Positions 15,001-18,000 of a stretch of 20,000 nucleotides of DNA are shown here, one piece after another. Origin of the DNA: an uncultured Methanosarcinales archaeon (GTDB lineage Archaea > Nanobdellota > Nanobdellia > Woesearchaeales > BS150m-G63). The position numbers are program-made. The stretch spans positions 53,454 through 73,453 of the forward strand of contig CAZVVW010000004.1 in assembly GCA_964630685.1 (NCBI GenBank). Reading direction: 5' to 3'. Positions within the stretch are counted from its first letter, which is position 1. Every line of letters begins with the position of its first letter.

Positions 15001-18000
15001 GATGACTCATGCAGATAATTTTAATGCTCAAGAATTTTATAATAAATTAGGGTTGAAAAGTGAGGCTAAATTAAAGGACCATTTTTATGATGGCAAAGAT
15101 GAATTAGTTATGTCAATATTTGTGGAGGATTGATTATTATGAAAATTAAGGCGGTTATTTTTGATTTGGATGATACATTGTTTGATTGTAGTGGAATTCT
15201 GGCAGAATCTGCTAGAAAGCGGGCTGCTAAAGCAATGGTTAAAGCTGGTTTGAAATGTAAGTGGGAAAAAGCATATAAGAAGATTAACGAGTTTAAGCGA
15301 AAAAAAGGACCTAAGACAGATGCTTTTCAAAAAGTTGTGGATAAATTCGGACCTAAAGATTATTCTATTGTAAAAGAAGCTATTAAATCATATAATAGTG
15401 AAGAAGGGATTGAAGGGATTGAGTTGTTTCCAGGGGTGAAAGAGACTCTTGCTGAATTGAGAGAAGATTATAAATTGATTTTGGTGACTAGTGGGACAAG
15501 GGTGCGTCAACAGAAAAAAATAGATATGCTTGGGCTGAACCATGATTTTGATTTAATAATTATTGATGAATTGGAAGAACAATTATCAAAAGAAGATAGG
15601 TTTTTAGCTGTTTTAAAGAATTTTAAATTAGTTCCTGAAGAGGTGCTTGTGGTTGGAGATAGAATATTCTCTGAAATTAAAATAGGAAATATTTTGGGAA
15701 TGACGACTGTGCAGATGTTGCATGGTGTTTATAGTGGATTAGTTCCTAAAAGAGGGGTAGAGGCTCCTGATTTTAGGATTACTAAGATTGCTGAATTAAT
15801 TAGAATTTTGGAAGAATTAGAAAATCATAAAGAGTTGAAGGTGGTTGTGATTGGTGGGGGAACTGGATTGCCTTCAATGCTGAAAGGGTTGAAGAAATAT
15901 ACTCGTGAATTGACTGCTGTTGTGGGGGTTACAGATTCTGGTAGAAGTTCTGGAATGCTTAGAAAAGATTTTGATATGGCTCCGCCTGGAGATATAAGAA
16001 ATTGTTTGGTTGCTTTGTCTGATGCTGAAAAACTGATGGGAGATTTATTTCAACACAGATTTATGAATGGTAGTTTAGAAGGGCATTCTTTTGGTAATTT
16101 GTTGATTACTGCGCTTACTCAGACCACTGGCAGTTATGAGAGAGCAATACATGAGGTTGGAGGAATTTTAAAGATAAAAGGTAGGGTGTTGCCTAGCTCT
16201 CACGAAAATGTACATATTTGTGCTGAATTTGAAGATGGAAATGTGATTAAAGAAGAAGATAATATTATTGATAGGCATAATCCTGATGTGCATTTGCGTC
16301 CTAGAATTAAAAAAGTGTTTCTGAGCAAAAAAGTCAAAGTTTGCGGTAGTGCTGTGAATGCTATTATGGATGCAGATATTGTGGTGATTGGTCCTGGAAG
16401 TTTGTTTACTAGTGTGATTACTAATTTACTTGTTAAAGGGATTCGTGATGCTGTTGTTAAGAGTAAAGCTAAGAAAGTTTATGTGTGTAATATAATGGCT
16501 CAACCTTCACAAACTTATGGATTTACATCATCTGAACATGTGGGGGAGATTGAGAAGTATTTAGGGAAAGGGGTTTTAGATTATATTATTTTGAATAATG
16601 AATTGCCCCCCAAGAAATTGTTGAGATTATATGAAAAAGATCATTCTCCTATGGTTGTGGTGGATAGGGTTGGATTGAAGAAATTCAAGGCTAAAAAGAT
16701 AGAGGCAAATATTGTTGAAGATGTTAAGGAGATAAAGGTTTTGTGGAACAAAAAGAATTTACTCAGGCATGATTCTGATAAGATTGCTAAGATAATTGTT
16801 GGGTTGGAATAGTTTTATATACTTGTTTTATATTTTTTCTTTTTATGAAGATTGAAATGTCTGCACTGGATTTGAAGTATATGGTTGAAGAATTGCAAGT
16901 GCTAGTTGGAGGAAGGGTTGATAAAATCTATCAAATTGGTAAGAGAGAATTCTTTTTTAGGTTTCATGTGCCAAATGAGGGTAAAAAAATTCTAAAGTTG
17001 TTTTTACCTAATTTGATGTATATTACAAAAAGGTTGGGAAGAATGCCTCAAACCCCCATGGGTTATTGTGCTTTTTTGAGAAAATATCTAGATAATGCGC
17101 GTGTTCGTGAAGTTAAACAGAAAGGGTTTGAAAGAATAATTGAATTTGTTTTTGAGAAAAAGGAAAAGTTCGTGTTGCTTGTTGAGATGTTTAGTAGCGG
17201 AAACATGATCTTGTGTAAAGAGAATTATACTATGTTGTCTCCTTTGGAAGGACAAGACTGGAGATGTAGGAGTATTAGAAAAGGGTTGAAATATGAATTT
17301 CCTCCTGAAAGGGAAGATATTTTTAAGTTGAACCTTGTGCGATTTAAAGAGATAATTGCTGGAAGTGAAAGAGATAATATTGTAAAGACATTAGCTGTTG
17401 ATTTTGGGCTTGGAGGAGTTTATGCTGAAGAGGTTTGTTTTGAGGTTATTGAGAAGGGGAAAAAAGAAGTCGGTGATAGTGAGATTAAGAAGTTGTTTAA
17501 ATCTTTAGATGGATTGCTTAGTCGTAAATTAAAGCCTGTGGTGTATAAAGGTCGTAGAGCGTTTCCTTTTGAATTGAAAAGTTTTGAAGGAGACTTTAAG
17601 GAATTTGAGAGTTTTAGTGGGGCTTTGGATTATGTTAATTTTGAGAAAAAAGTTGCCTTTAAGGATAAAGTTGATGTTATTATAGAAAAACAAGAGCAGA
17701 ATTTAGGGGTGCTTGAGAAAGAAATTGAAGAGAATGGAAAGATAGGTGATTTGATTTATAATAATTATGTTTTGGTTGCTGATGTGTTGAAACAGATTGA
17801 TTCTGCTAGAAAGGAATTAGGATGGAAAGAAGTGAAAGAGAAACTGAAAGGGCACAAAGTTGTTAAAGAGATAGATGAAGCTGAAGGGAAGGTTGTTATT
17901 GACATATGATTCAAAGTAAGACAAAGATTTATAGAATAAATTTAAAGAAAAAAAAGTGGACAGCTTTCTGGGTTTCCCATACAAAGTATAGTACACCCCA

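What a model noticed while it worked through the whole genome (the two positions that open the first line are those of the whole stretch)
16845..17909. Ribosome quality-control factor aRqcH (NEMF/Rqc2) is split inside its coiled coil into two unlinked genes
The archaeal RqcH/NEMF homologue, normally one ~610-670-aa protein (NFACT-N, HhH, coiled-coil hairpin, NFACT-R), is encoded by two complete genes on different contigs: g00431 (C4:70298-71362, 354 aa; aligns to M. jannaschii aRqcH 1-390) and g00896 (C17:10681-11448, 255 aa; aligns to 465-670). The break falls at the tip of the coiled-coil hairpin, so the two polypeptides can rebuild the rod by pairing one helix each. The split is shared by nearly all sampled Woesearchaeales, with the halves hundreds of kb apart, while a sister-order genome has the fused gene.
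Evidence so far: Swiss-Prot coordinates on Q59020; Pfam NFACT_N on g00431, NFACT-R_1 on g00896. g00896 as query: free-standing ORFs of 251-316 aa (one of 479) in 41 of 42 other Woesearchaeales of a high-quality sample; outgroup G301 has one 611-aa ORF that also holds the match to g00431. Distances in closed genomes: G016 418 kb, G085 352 kb, G025 180 kb; G108 on different contigs. Complex prediction of the halves: ipSAE 0.63 (runs 0.63-0.64, at least 80% shared contacts, partner pLDDT 83) against best control 0.41; the mark was reached by 51 of 78 solved complexes and 2 of 108 mismatched pairs; interface = residues 276-354 of g00431 with 1-47 of g00896.
(Added by a program. Inside this text positions count along the whole contig: contig position 53,454 is position 1 of the stretch shown here. 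"Call 12" and the like, gene names such as g00115 and contig names such as C1 are that model's own, and its searches are not shown. The text may have been shortened before it was handed on; [...] marks where a part breaks off. The agent that wrote the report below was given it as the finding of a first reader that could run no searches.)

Follow-up and report, generated by a model that had tools for sequence, protein, structure and literature searches.

The report
Two-piece ribosome-rescue factor RqcH
This small archaeon encodes the ribosome-rescue protein RqcH as two separate, well-conserved genes cut at a hairpin turn at the far tip of the protein's long arm; the split is real, but it has already been recorded for this group of archaea.

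Summary
Window 16845-17909 (+) is a complete 354-aa ORF matching positions 1-376 of the archaeal RqcH profile. A 255-aa ORF on contig C17 matches positions 380-645. No other copy exists in the genome. Of 121 genomes of the order, 103 have both halves, always in separate frames, and none has a fused gene. Where both halves lie on one contig they are 180-418 kb apart. Both halves are under purifying selection (dN/dS 0.11 and 0.04) and keep the tRNA- and ribosome-binding motif residues. The cut is not inside a helix: it lies in the turn between the second and third strands of the small M-domain sheet at the tip of the coiled coil. A complex model pairs the two helices and the strands (ipSAE 0.72, best control 0.00), though this may reflect memory of solved single-chain structures.

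It is not new. Podar 2013 lists the same family (arCOG01695/COG1293) as split in Nanoarchaeota. A 2024 fusion/fission screen lists 12 Woesearchaeota assemblies. This scan has also met it before on other DNA.

I found three things in no paper or note. A neighbouring order keeps the order N-half, cysS, C-half. One genome there has re-fused the gene. The gene tree points to at least two separate fissions at the same turn.

The parts
16845..17909 (+). N-half gene of split RqcH (354 aa plus TGA stop)
   Evidence: ORF. Pfam NFACT_N at E 2.2e-43, model 3-360. NF041120 RqcH_arch profile 1-376, 239.9 bits. dN/dS 0.106 against the same-genus genome G018.
16845..17639 (+). NFACT-N plus helix-hairpin-helix region (residues 1 to about 265): the tRNA-binding head
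   Evidence: Residues 1-183 align to human NEMF 1-186 (3j92), and 15-276 to B. subtilis RqcH 13-287 (7aqc/7as8). R97, E114, G119 and N120 are invariant and E96 nearly invariant in 33 N-halves. They align with the DR (D97/R98) and EIM (E121..) loops of B. subtilis RqcH. The boundary at 265 is approximate.
17646..17810 (+). First helix of the coiled-coil arm (CC1, residues about 268-322)
   Evidence: Residues 272-322 touch the C-half helix with a heptad-like spacing in the complex model. This corresponds to helix 250-318 in the AlphaFold model of the fused relative.
17811..17906 (+). First two strands of the M domain (residues about 323-354); the protein ends directly after strand 2 ('...GKVVIDI')
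   Evidence: Alignment of ends with fused relatives. The fused relative has strands 328-332, 337-342 and 345-350, and the break maps between the last two. Of 33 N-half ends read (28 of this order, 5 of the neighbouring order), 31 complete ones stop within 0-4 residues after this strand with TAA, TGA or TAG; the other two were unreadable at the end.
16813..16821 (+). TATA-like box TTTTATATA, 24-32 nt before the ATG (inferred own promoter, leaderless-type transcript)
   Evidence: Read directly. A similarly placed TTAAATA lies 23-29 nt before the ATG of the C-half on C17 (read). This is inference only; there are no RNA data.
17955..18069 (-). 5S rRNA gene 46 nt beyond the stop of the N-half, exactly where the rest of the gene would follow
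   Evidence: Rfam RF00001, 66.6 bits. The same neighbour lies downstream of the N-half in G018, G050 and G102, and about 1 kb away in G086.

Best explanation
This is an old, stable gene fission of the archaeal ribosome quality-control factor RqcH (NFACT/NEMF/Rqc2 family). The N-half carries the tRNA-binding head (NFACT-N and HhH), the outgoing helix of the coiled-coil arm, and strands 1-2 of the small M-domain sheet at its tip. The C-half carries strand 3, the returning helix, the ribosome-binding NFACT-R domain and the C-terminal domain. Each gene has its own start, stop and promoter-like box.

Most likely the two proteins are made separately and re-associate without a covalent link. The two helices would form the antiparallel coiled coil, and strand 3 would complete the sheet, giving a heterodimer with the shape of single-chain RqcH. 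That heterodimer would then sit on obstructed large subunits as in B. subtilis. There, NFACT-R contacts the A-site finger, the tip contacts the uL11 stalk base, and the head holds the tRNA anticodon stem.

Shown here: the fission, its exact place, its spread, and selection on both halves. Inferred: heterodimer formation, ribosome binding and tailing activity.
For: The halves are complementary and nothing is missing: RqcH_arch profile 1-376 plus 380-645, summing to 560 bits against a cut-off of 400, and they align back to back on 20 of 20 fused relatives.

Spread in the order: across 121 genomes, 108 have an N-type match (my count of the rows). Their frames are 224-484 aa, plus one 700-aa read-through (G086) that I checked to be a 382-aa ORF with no C-half nearby. 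NFACT-R is over cut-off in 114, in frames of 248-479 aa plus one cut by a contig end. No frame is long enough for a fused protein. Both halves are present in 103, and in 106 after a profile search. In the five genomes where both lie on one contig they are 180-418 kb apart.

Named records: in 80 of 80 Woesearchaeota-type loci the C-half is a free-standing ORF of 251-277 aa (one cut by a contig end). All have an in-frame stop upstream, 76 have an ATG at the expected place, and none has an N-half within 4 kb.

Selection: dN/dS is 0.106 for the N-half (dS 1.09) and 0.040 for the C-half (dS 0.82). The interface segments give 0.24 and 0.05.

Motifs: R97 and E114 are invariant in 33 N-halves. H106 is invariant and D102 nearly so in 55 C-halves. 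These align with the DR, EIM and DWH motifs needed for tRNA or 50S binding in B. subtilis RqcH (passages).

Why the halves must pair: in B. subtilis the head touches only tRNA, and the only 50S contacts are NFACT-R and the tip of the arm. A free N-half would therefore have no ribosome anchor except through the C-half.

Complex model of N 255-354 with C 1-68: ipSAE 0.72 (runs 0.71-0.74), best of 3 controls 0.00. The runs agree in 100% of contacts and partner pLDDT is at least 80. The mark was reached by 116 of 157 solved complexes and 2 of 215 mismatched pairs, and these counts hold only roughly because my own alignments were used.

Loss pattern: in the neighbouring order, five genomes that lack NFACT-R also lack an N-type match (G123, G142, G210, G215, G185).
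Against: No experiment, transcript or peptide was available.

The complex score can come from the model's memory of solved single-chain RqcH/NEMF/Rqc2 structures (7AS8, 9GY4, 8AAF). It then shows likeness, not binding.

Eight of 121 genomes show a C-half but no N-half even with a profile of 33 N-halves. Six of them are at least 90% complete, and one (G112) is unpublished. Five show only the N-half, all under 87% complete. With genomes about 90% complete, roughly ten misses per gene are expected, so this fits incompleteness, but it does not exclude C-halves that work alone. G220 of the neighbouring order has only a diverged C-half.

The DR motif reads E-R here rather than D-R.
Confidence: 0.8

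Rival explanations
1. The two halves have drifted into separate jobs and do not form a stable complex. For example, the C-half alone might bind the ribosome (as solo NFACT-R proteins such as CCDC25/Jlp2 are thought to act in RNA-related roles), while the N-half acts as a free tRNA-binding protein.
For: Eight of 121 genomes have the C-half without a detectable N-half, and five have the reverse. G220 has only a diverged C-half. Solo NFACT-R proteins exist in eukaryotes (PMC4075521, passages). The interface part of the N-half evolves faster than the rest (dN/dS 0.24 against 0.07).
Against: The halves co-occur in 103-106 of 121 genomes, and the misses fit genome incompleteness. The helix and strand segments that would have no role outside a complex are kept in every half, and the ends vary by only 0-4 residues. 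The C-half's first 68 residues have dN/dS 0.05. One lineage re-fused the halves into a normal full-length protein scoring 524.6 bits on RqcH_arch. That is hard to reconcile with diverged functions. The complex model passes its controls.
Confidence: 0.12
2. The halves are joined after transcription or translation, by mRNA trans-splicing or by a split intein, so the cell still makes one chain.
For: Nanoarchaeota join tRNA halves in trans, and one split N. equitans gene (DNA polymerase) is known to use an intein. The intein case is recalled and comes from no call here.
Against: The two ORFs add up to the fused protein with only 3 profile positions, or 2-5 turn residues, missing. There is therefore no room for intein fragments. 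The C-half starts with Met followed by Thr, Lys, Glu or similar, not a conserved Cys/Ser nucleophile in a fixed context. Each ORF has its own start and stop codon, and the stop codon differs between genomes. No Rfam family lies at either end apart from the 5S gene.
Confidence: 0.02
3. Assembly artefact, frameshift or decaying pseudogene.
For: The genome is a 35-contig draft and the halves lie on different contigs. One genome of the order (G038) has an N-half broken by internal stops.
Against: The same state is seen in closed single-contig genomes, with the halves 180-418 kb apart (G016, G025, G085, G097). It is also seen in 80 of 80 named loci. Both halves are under strong purifying selection. 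The N-half is followed by a 5S rRNA gene, not by remnants of the C-half.
Confidence: 0.01

Closest known systems
Split 'Predicted RNA-binding protein' (arCOG01695 / COG1293) of Nanoarchaeota: NEQ438 + NEQ506 in Nanoarchaeum equitans, Nst1_176 + Nst1_251 in Nst1 (Podar et al. 2013, PMC3655853, Table 1 and supplementary file 2)
   Same: It is the same protein family. The supplement assigns both Nst1 pieces to arCOG01695 = COG01293, and COG1293 is the RqcH family (bioRxiv 10.1101/2020.09.03.281279, methods passage). It also comprises two unlinked genes, with 'same site' in both nanoarchaea.
   Different: That paper used the old name and made no link to ribosome quality control. It gave no position of the cut in the structure, and it stated that the gene is intact in all other archaea. 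I could not align the named NEQ/Nst proteins. Every split lineage of the class that I did align, including a closed 0.49-Mb genome (G130), is cut at the same turn.
Cluster 73 (H2TH - NFACT_RNA-bind; arCOG01695; K24971 NEMF/RQC2), classed 'fission', in 'Fusion/fission protein family identification in Archaea' (mSystems 2024, PMC11237513, supplementary file 3)
   Same: It lists non-syntenic split proteins of this family in 57 assemblies: Micrarchaeota 16, Woesearchaeota 12, Altiarchaeales 8, unclassified Archaea 6, Korarchaeota 2, Nanoarchaeales 2, Nanoarchaeota 2, and others. The fission in this very group is therefore on record.
   Different: It is a row in a table. The main text never mentions NFACT or RqcH (0 occurrences). 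There is no break site, no test of selection, no structure, no order-wide count, no cysS arrangement and no re-fusion.
Single-chain RqcH / NEMF / Rqc2 (B. subtilis RqcH, PDB 7AS8, 7AQC, 7OPE; human NEMF 9GY4, 3J92; yeast Rqc2 8AAF)
   Same: The domain order and motifs are the same. The N-half aligns to NEMF 1-186 and RqcH 13-287. The C-half aligns to NEMF 461-646 at E 5e-36 and to Rqc2 505-686.
   Different: These are one polypeptide of 570-1076 aa. Here the chain is cut at the tip of the arm, the part that contacts uL11 and the stalk base in B. subtilis.
Other split protein genes of Nanoarchaeota (reverse gyrase, Glu-tRNA(Gln) amidotransferase, alanyl-tRNA synthetase and others; PMC3655853; review PMC6349945)
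   Same: They are housekeeping or information-processing genes cut into two unlinked ORFs in reduced DPANN genomes, and are thought to reassemble after translation.
   Different: Most of those are confined to one or two genomes. This split is fixed across an order sampled here through about 120 families.

Membership tests
Archaeal RqcH (NCBIfam NF041120 RqcH_arch; NFACT family) | NFACT-N domain plus HhH region with the tRNA-binding loops (DR and EIM motifs of B. subtilis RqcH) | tested here: met
   Pfam NFACT_N model 3-360 at E 2.2e-43. R97 and E114 are invariant in 33 N-halves. The first motif reads E96-R97 instead of D-R.
Archaeal RqcH (NCBIfam NF041120 RqcH_arch; NFACT family) | Coiled-coil hairpin with a small M domain at its tip | tested here: met
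   It is present but shared between two polypeptides. CC1 and strands 1-2 are on the N-half; strand 3 and CC2 are on the C-half.
Archaeal RqcH (NCBIfam NF041120 RqcH_arch; NFACT family) | NFACT-R domain with the D-x-W-x-H type motif, and the archaeal/eukaryotic C-terminal domain | tested here: met
   This lies on the C-half (contig C17, outside the window). NFACT-R_1 at E 5e-34, residues 69-179. D102 is nearly invariant and H106 invariant in 55 C-halves, and the middle residue is V/F rather than W. The RqcH_arch profile is covered to position 645.
Archaeal RqcH (NCBIfam NF041120 RqcH_arch; NFACT family) | One polypeptide scoring over the equivalog cut-off (400 bits) | tested here: not met
   The halves score 239.9 and 320.1 bits, each under 400, and sum to 560. 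The re-fused relative G269 scores 524.6. Standard annotation would therefore leave both halves unnamed.
Archaeal RqcH (NCBIfam NF041120 RqcH_arch; NFACT family) | Binds obstructed large subunits and adds C-terminal tails | not testable with these tools
   No biochemical data exist for any archaeal RqcH in the papers I could search.
Split RqcH of DPANN archaea (NEQ438/NEQ506 type; cluster 73 of PMC11237513) | Two complete, non-adjacent ORFs that together cover the family profile | tested here: met
   The halves lie on different contigs in G000 and 180-418 kb apart in closed relatives.
Split RqcH of DPANN archaea (NEQ438/NEQ506 type; cluster 73 of PMC11237513) | Same break site as the published Nanoarchaeota pair | tested here: inconclusive
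   No named NEQ/Nst sequences were to hand. All split lineages of the class that I aligned (G130, G231, G146/G171, G192, G199 and others) break at the same turn.
Split-intein-joined proteins | Extra intein fragments at the break and a Cys/Ser/Thr nucleophile at the first extein residue | tested here: not met
   The halves abut on fused relatives with 2-5 residues missing and no extra sequence.
Solo NFACT-R proteins (CCDC25 / Jlp2 type) | NFACT-R as a lone domain followed by a short C-terminal coiled coil, a paralogue beside a full-length NFACT gene | tested here: not met
   Here the helix precedes NFACT-R, the protein covers RqcH_arch 380-645, and there is no full-length copy in the genome. 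The family description is from PMC4075521.

The most novel reading that the evidence does not exclude
The turn at the tip of RqcH's arm may be a site where the chain can be cut, filled and rejoined without loss of function, and the neighbouring order may preserve the fossil of how the cut arose. There the only cysteinyl-tRNA synthetase gene sits exactly between the two halves, with ATGA stop/start overlaps on both sides in G192. The same order N-half, cysS, C-half is seen in three different families (G192, G263, G268). On this reading a housekeeping gene landed in the turn and RqcH survived as two coupled cistrons. The pieces later scattered, which is the state in the window's order. In one lineage (G269) the gene was stitched together again after cysS moved away. 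The same turn was cut at least once more, independently, in the class. If so, RqcH works as a non-covalent heterodimer, and the covalent hinge at the uL11-binding tip is dispensable for its scissor-like motion.
Probability: 0.4. Interest if true: 0.55.

Novelty: already known. Interest (0 to 1): 0.33.

Why it matters
The bare fact, RqcH encoded in two pieces in DPANN archaea, is on record, so it changes little. It still has practical value. Each half scores below the naming cut-off of the RqcH model, so these genomes look as if they lack ribosome quality control when they do not.

The natural cut also marks a site at the tip of the arm where the chain can be opened. That is a ready-made design for split or insertion variants of RqcH/NEMF. 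It is also a natural test of whether the covalent hinge at the stalk-base contact is needed.

The series seen across relatives gives an unusually complete record of gene fission and re-fusion at one residue-level site. The states are fused, cysS-interrupted operon, dispersed halves, re-fused, and lost.

Tried and rejected
RNA evidence: the look-up of sequencing runs listed no RNA holder of the stretch. This is no evidence either way.

The search for related loci with a 9-row alignment failed because it had no conserved stretch. It worked with a 5-row alignment.

Waters et al. 2003 (PMC240731) is not held, so the 2003 origin of the NEQ438/NEQ506 entry is taken from Podar 2013.

Literature searches that returned nothing on a split RqcH: 'RqcH, archaea, split', 'NFACT, archaeal, NEMF', 'aRqcH', 'COG1293', 'NEQ438/NEQ506' and 'homologous to eukaryotic snRNP'. 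Burroughs and Aravind 2014 has no mention of a split (passages).

The idea that G263 carries one 1101-aa N-CysRS-C fusion protein came from the 'open_frame' column. It was rejected because the ORF listing shows three separate ORFs.

The idea that cysS marks the break in the window's own order was also rejected. There is no cysS within 4 kb of the C-half in 80 named loci. There is none in the roughly 300-450 nt after the N-half in 21 loci. In G000 cysS is on contig C8.

A single origin of all split genes in the class was tested. The gene tree needs at least 3 changes, 0 of 200 bootstrap trees have one, and the AU test on the 28-row set gives p 0.013. This is a gene tree with long branches and no outgroup, and I named the group after seeing a first tree, so one origin is disfavoured rather than excluded.

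No species tree was built, and order names for the unnamed handles could not be obtained.
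Full report
**1. The observation**

Window 16845..17909 (+) is an ATG-to-TGA ORF of 354 aa. It matches Pfam NFACT_N at E 2.2e-43 over model positions 3-360 of 456.

It carries NFACT-R_1 at E 5e-34, residues 69-179. It also carries the piece of NFACT_N that the first gene lacks, positions 369-426.

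Against the NCBIfam equivalog for archaeal RqcH (NF041120, 645 positions, cut-off 400 bits) the halves behave as follows.
- The N-half covers positions 1-376 at 239.9 bits.
- The C-half covers positions 380-645 at 320.1 bits.
- Three positions are unaccounted for.
- Each half alone falls under the naming cut-off.

Searches of the whole genome found no other copy. That genome has 936,502 bases in 35 contigs and is 96.6% complete.

**2. Where the cut lies**

In 20 of 20 fused homologues from other orders of the same class, the two halves align back to back. Examples are 14-395 then 401-656, and 6-373 then 379-639.

An alignment of the ends shows the same pattern.
- N-halves stop right after a strand of the type '...GKVVIDI'.
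- C-halves begin 'M-x-I-T-L-D-I-T-K-S'.
- Fused proteins have 2-5 turn residues between the two.

I modelled a fused relative (G269, 592 aa, 21-row alignment, mean pLDDT 89.7). The model has these elements.
- A long helix at 250-318.
- Three strands at 328-332, 337-342 and 345-350.
- The returning helix at 355-393.

The break maps to the turn between the second and third strands. The cut is therefore not inside a helix of the coiled coil. It lies in the small M-domain sheet at the tip.

PDB comparisons agree.
- The C-half starts at human NEMF residue 461 (9gy4, E 5e-36) and at yeast Rqc2 residue 505.
- The N-half reaches NEMF residue 379.

**3. Spread in the order**

I searched 121 genomes of the order, G000 included, almost all from different family codes. 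One of them, G112, is flagged unpublished.

- An N-type match (E 6.7e-18 or better) is present in 108, by my count of the rows.
- The frames holding it are 224-484 aa.
- The one 700-aa frame (G086) includes a stop. Read directly, it is a 382-aa ORF with no C-half in a 4-kb locus.
- NFACT-R is over cut-off in 114 genomes. Its frames are 248-479 aa, plus one cut at a contig start.
- No genome has a frame long enough for a fused protein.

The cross-tabulation gives:

| State | Genomes |
|---|---|
| Both halves | 103 |
| C-half only | 11 |
| N-half only | 5 |
| Neither | 2 |

A profile of 33 N-halves recovered partial N-halves in 3 of the 11 C-only genomes. That leaves 106 with both and 8 with the C-half only. 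The five N-only genomes are all under 87% complete. With genomes around 90% complete, about ten misses per gene are expected, so these gaps fit incompleteness.

In the five genomes where both halves lie on one contig, they are 180-418 kb apart (G016 418, G085 352, G097 334, G098 252, G025 180).

Named public records give an independent check. Of 598 stretches that matched, 522 encode a relative. The best 80 are mostly labelled Candidatus Woesearchaeota or Nanoarchaeota. Across these 80 loci:
- The C-half is a free-standing ORF of 251-277 aa in all 80, with one cut by a contig end.
- An in-frame stop lies upstream in all 80.
- An ATG sits at the expected place in 76 (2 have GTG, 2 TTG).
- No N-half lies within 4 kb in any.

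I also read 33 N-half ends, 28 from this order and 5 from the neighbouring order. One ran off its contig and one was misread past a stop. The other 31 stop within 0-4 residues of the strand, using TAA, TGA or TAG in different genomes.

**4. Are both halves alive?**

dN/dS by the Nei-Gojobori method:

| Comparison | dN/dS | dS |
|---|---|---|
| N-half, G000 vs same-genus G018 | 0.106 | 1.09 |
| C-half, G000 vs a 93%-identical named relative | 0.040 | 0.82 |
| N-half residues 261-354 (would touch the partner) | 0.24 | |
| C-half residues 1-68 (would touch the partner) | 0.05 | |

Motif residues are also kept.
- R97, E114, G119 and N120 are invariant, and E96 nearly so, in 33 N-halves.
- H106 is invariant and D102 nearly so in 55 C-halves.

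These align with the DR, EIM and DWH motifs of B. subtilis RqcH. Mutating those motifs abolishes tRNA binding or 50S binding (bioRxiv 10.1101/2020.09.03.281279, passages read). The first motif is E-R here rather than D-R.

Both genes have a TATA-like box 23-32 nt before the ATG (read). That fits separate leaderless-type transcripts, but it is inference.

**5. How it most likely works**

In B. subtilis the NFACT-N and HhH head touches only the tRNA. The protein has just two contacts with the 50S. NFACT-R contacts the A-site finger, and the far end of the coiled-coil/M domain contacts uL11 and H44 (passages).

After the cut, the tRNA-binding head and the ribosome-binding domain are on different chains. 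They can act together only if the two helices pair.

I ran a complex model of N 255-354 with C 1-68, each with its alignment.
- ipSAE was 0.72 (runs 0.71-0.74). The best of 3 controls scored 0.00.
- The runs agreed in 100% of contacts, and partner pLDDT was at least 80.
- The mark was reached by 116 of 157 solved complexes and 2 of 215 mismatched pairs. These counts hold only roughly because my own alignments were used.
- The interface is helix 272-322 against helix 15-47, plus strand 348-354 against residues 1-12.

Single-chain RqcH, NEMF and Rqc2 structures are solved, so the pass may be memory of those folds. It shows likeness, not binding.

I put the fission itself at near certainty and non-covalent reassembly into a working RqcH at about 0.8.

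**6. Beyond the order**

In a sample of 151 genomes of the class:
- About 60 genomes outside the order (62 by my count of listed rows) carry the N-type match in frames of 556-747 aa, the fused form.
- 33 genomes have no match. One family code has 0 of 17 and another 0 of 7.
- Split forms also occur outside the order, in G130 (a closed 0.49-Mb genome, halves at 387 and 450 kb), G231, the g147 genus (G146, G171 and others), G192 and G199. All are cut at the same turn.

A careful maximum-likelihood tree of 33 rows was built from N and C parts aligned separately and concatenated.
- One clade (96/96) holds the window's order together with the order of G192.
- A second clade (99/97) holds G130, G231 and g147, with a fused long-branch sequence (G165) as sister.
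- Fused sequences lie between the two clades.
- The tree needs at least three changes of state. None of 200 bootstrap trees has one.
- On the 28-row set, the AU test gives p 0.013 against all split rows forming one group.

This is a gene tree with long branches and no outgroup, and I named the group after seeing a first tree. At least two fissions at the same turn is the better reading, not a proven one.

**7. The neighbouring order: cysS between the halves, and a re-fusion**

In G192 the gene order on one strand is N-half, a 454-aa gene, then C-half. Both junctions have ATGA stop/start overlaps. The middle gene is cysteinyl-tRNA synthetase (tRNA-synt_1e, E 1e-107).

Related arrangements occur in other families of that order.
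- G263 has the same three genes with short spacers.
- G268 also has them. There cysS is itself cut in two by a 270-aa ORF with a phage endonuclease I-like domain.
- G265 keeps cysS next to the C-half, with the N-half on another contig.
- G199 and G266 have dispersed halves.

This cysS is the only full copy in G192, G263, G265 and G268.

G269 has a normal fused gene of about 592 aa, scoring 524.6 bits on RqcH_arch. In the tree it is nested among split genes, at 99/94 with G266 and 100/98 with G263. Its cysS lies on another contig. One re-fusion is far more economical than five or six separate fissions.

In this order, 22 of 31 sampled genomes have no NFACT-R at all. Five of those were also in the class search and lack an N-type match. 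The halves therefore tend to be lost together.

None of this applies to the window's own order.
- No cysS lies within 4 kb of the C-half in 80 named loci.
- No cysS follows the N-half in 21 loci.
- In G000, cysS is on contig C8.

**8. What is known**

I searched the library for a split RqcH under several names and found no text on it. Burroughs and Aravind 2014 (PMC4075521, passages) describe the family core as resistant to change and mention no split.

The fact is nevertheless in print.
- Podar et al. 2013 (PMC3655853, Table 1, passages read) list a split 'Predicted RNA-binding protein'. It is NEQ438-506 in N. equitans and Nst176-251 in Nst1, marked 'same site'.
- Their supplementary file 2 assigns both Nst1 pieces to arCOG01695 = COG01293.
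- COG1293 is the RqcH family (methods passage).
- The 2024 screen 'Fusion/fission protein family identification in Archaea' (PMC11237513) has a row for cluster 73 in supplementary file 3. The cluster is H2TH-NFACT_RNA-bind, arCOG01695, K24971 NEMF/RQC2, and is classed 'fission'.
- That row lists non-syntenic split proteins in 57 assemblies. They include Micrarchaeota 16, Woesearchaeota 12, Altiarchaeales 8, Nanoarchaeales 2 and Nanoarchaeota 2.
- Its main text never mentions the family.

Earlier notes of this scan also describe the split on other DNA and cite the same Nanoarchaeota precedent. None mentions cysS or a re-fusion.

**9. Verdict**

The finding is real, precisely placed, order-wide and under selection.

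I found the following in no paper or note.
- The residue-level site of the cut, between strands 2 and 3 of the M domain.
- The order-wide counts.
- The N-half, cysS, C-half arrangement in the neighbouring order.
- The re-fused gene in G269.
- The indication of at least two fissions at one turn.

These concern relatives more than this window, and all functional steps are inferred.

Noticed in passing
window 17955-18069 (-); also L126 1597-1711, L146 1547-1659, L150 70-186, L016 379-495: A 5S rRNA gene lies 46 nt beyond the stop of the N-half, at the very place where the gene is cut. The same neighbour follows the N-half in G018, G050 and G102 (within about 50-220 nt), and about 1 kb away in G086. 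That is 5 of 28 N-half loci of the order read (4 of 27 family codes), with short flanks, so this is a lower bound. It is far more than chance for a single-copy gene and may be an old linkage dating from the rearrangement.
   Followed up: partly
L008 810-3942 (G192); L132 1464-4751 (G263); L133 817-5195 minus strand (G268); L130 1-1512 (G265): In the neighbouring order, the only cysteinyl-tRNA synthetase gene sits exactly between the two RqcH halves. G192 has ATGA overlaps at both junctions. Three family codes share the order N-half, cysS, C-half, and a fourth keeps cysS next to the C-half.
   Followed up: partly
L127 992-2767 (G269): A fused, full-length RqcH gene is nested among split genes in the gene tree (99/94 and 100/98 support). 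Its cysS is on another contig. This is most simply a re-fusion of a once-split gene.
   Followed up: partly
L133 1960-4245 minus strand (G268): The cysS gene is itself cut into two ORFs (240 and 251 aa) by a 270-aa ORF with a phage endonuclease I-like domain (PF05367, E 4.5e-8). This is a second gene fission by insertion within the same operon.
   Followed up: no
L001 4366-5616 minus strand (G000 contig C17, next to the C-half): A 416-aa GAF + GGDEF (diguanylate cyclase-type) protein lies directly downstream of the C-half, followed by class I lysyl-tRNA synthetase. GGDEF proteins are uncommon in archaea (recalled, not checked here).
   Followed up: no
window 15130-16812 (+): The gene upstream of the N-half is a 560-aa fusion of a HAD-type phosphatase domain (residues 6-194) with a CofD/YvcK-type domain (238-528, E 3e-99).
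   Followed up: no
class sample; order of G192: Whole lineages of the class appear to lack RqcH. One family code has 0 of 17 genomes and another 0 of 7 with an NFACT_N match. In the order of G192, 22 of 31 genomes have no NFACT-R match, many of them over 90% complete.
   Followed up: no
L023 571-1395 (G025); G033:C29:6924-7268; L131 558-1304 (G220): There are odd variants. The G025 N-half is only 275 aa and lacks about 75 residues of the HhH region. G033 has a 426-aa frame in which only the helix/M part matches the N-half profile. G220 has a diverged 249-aa C-half and no detectable N-half.
   Followed up: no
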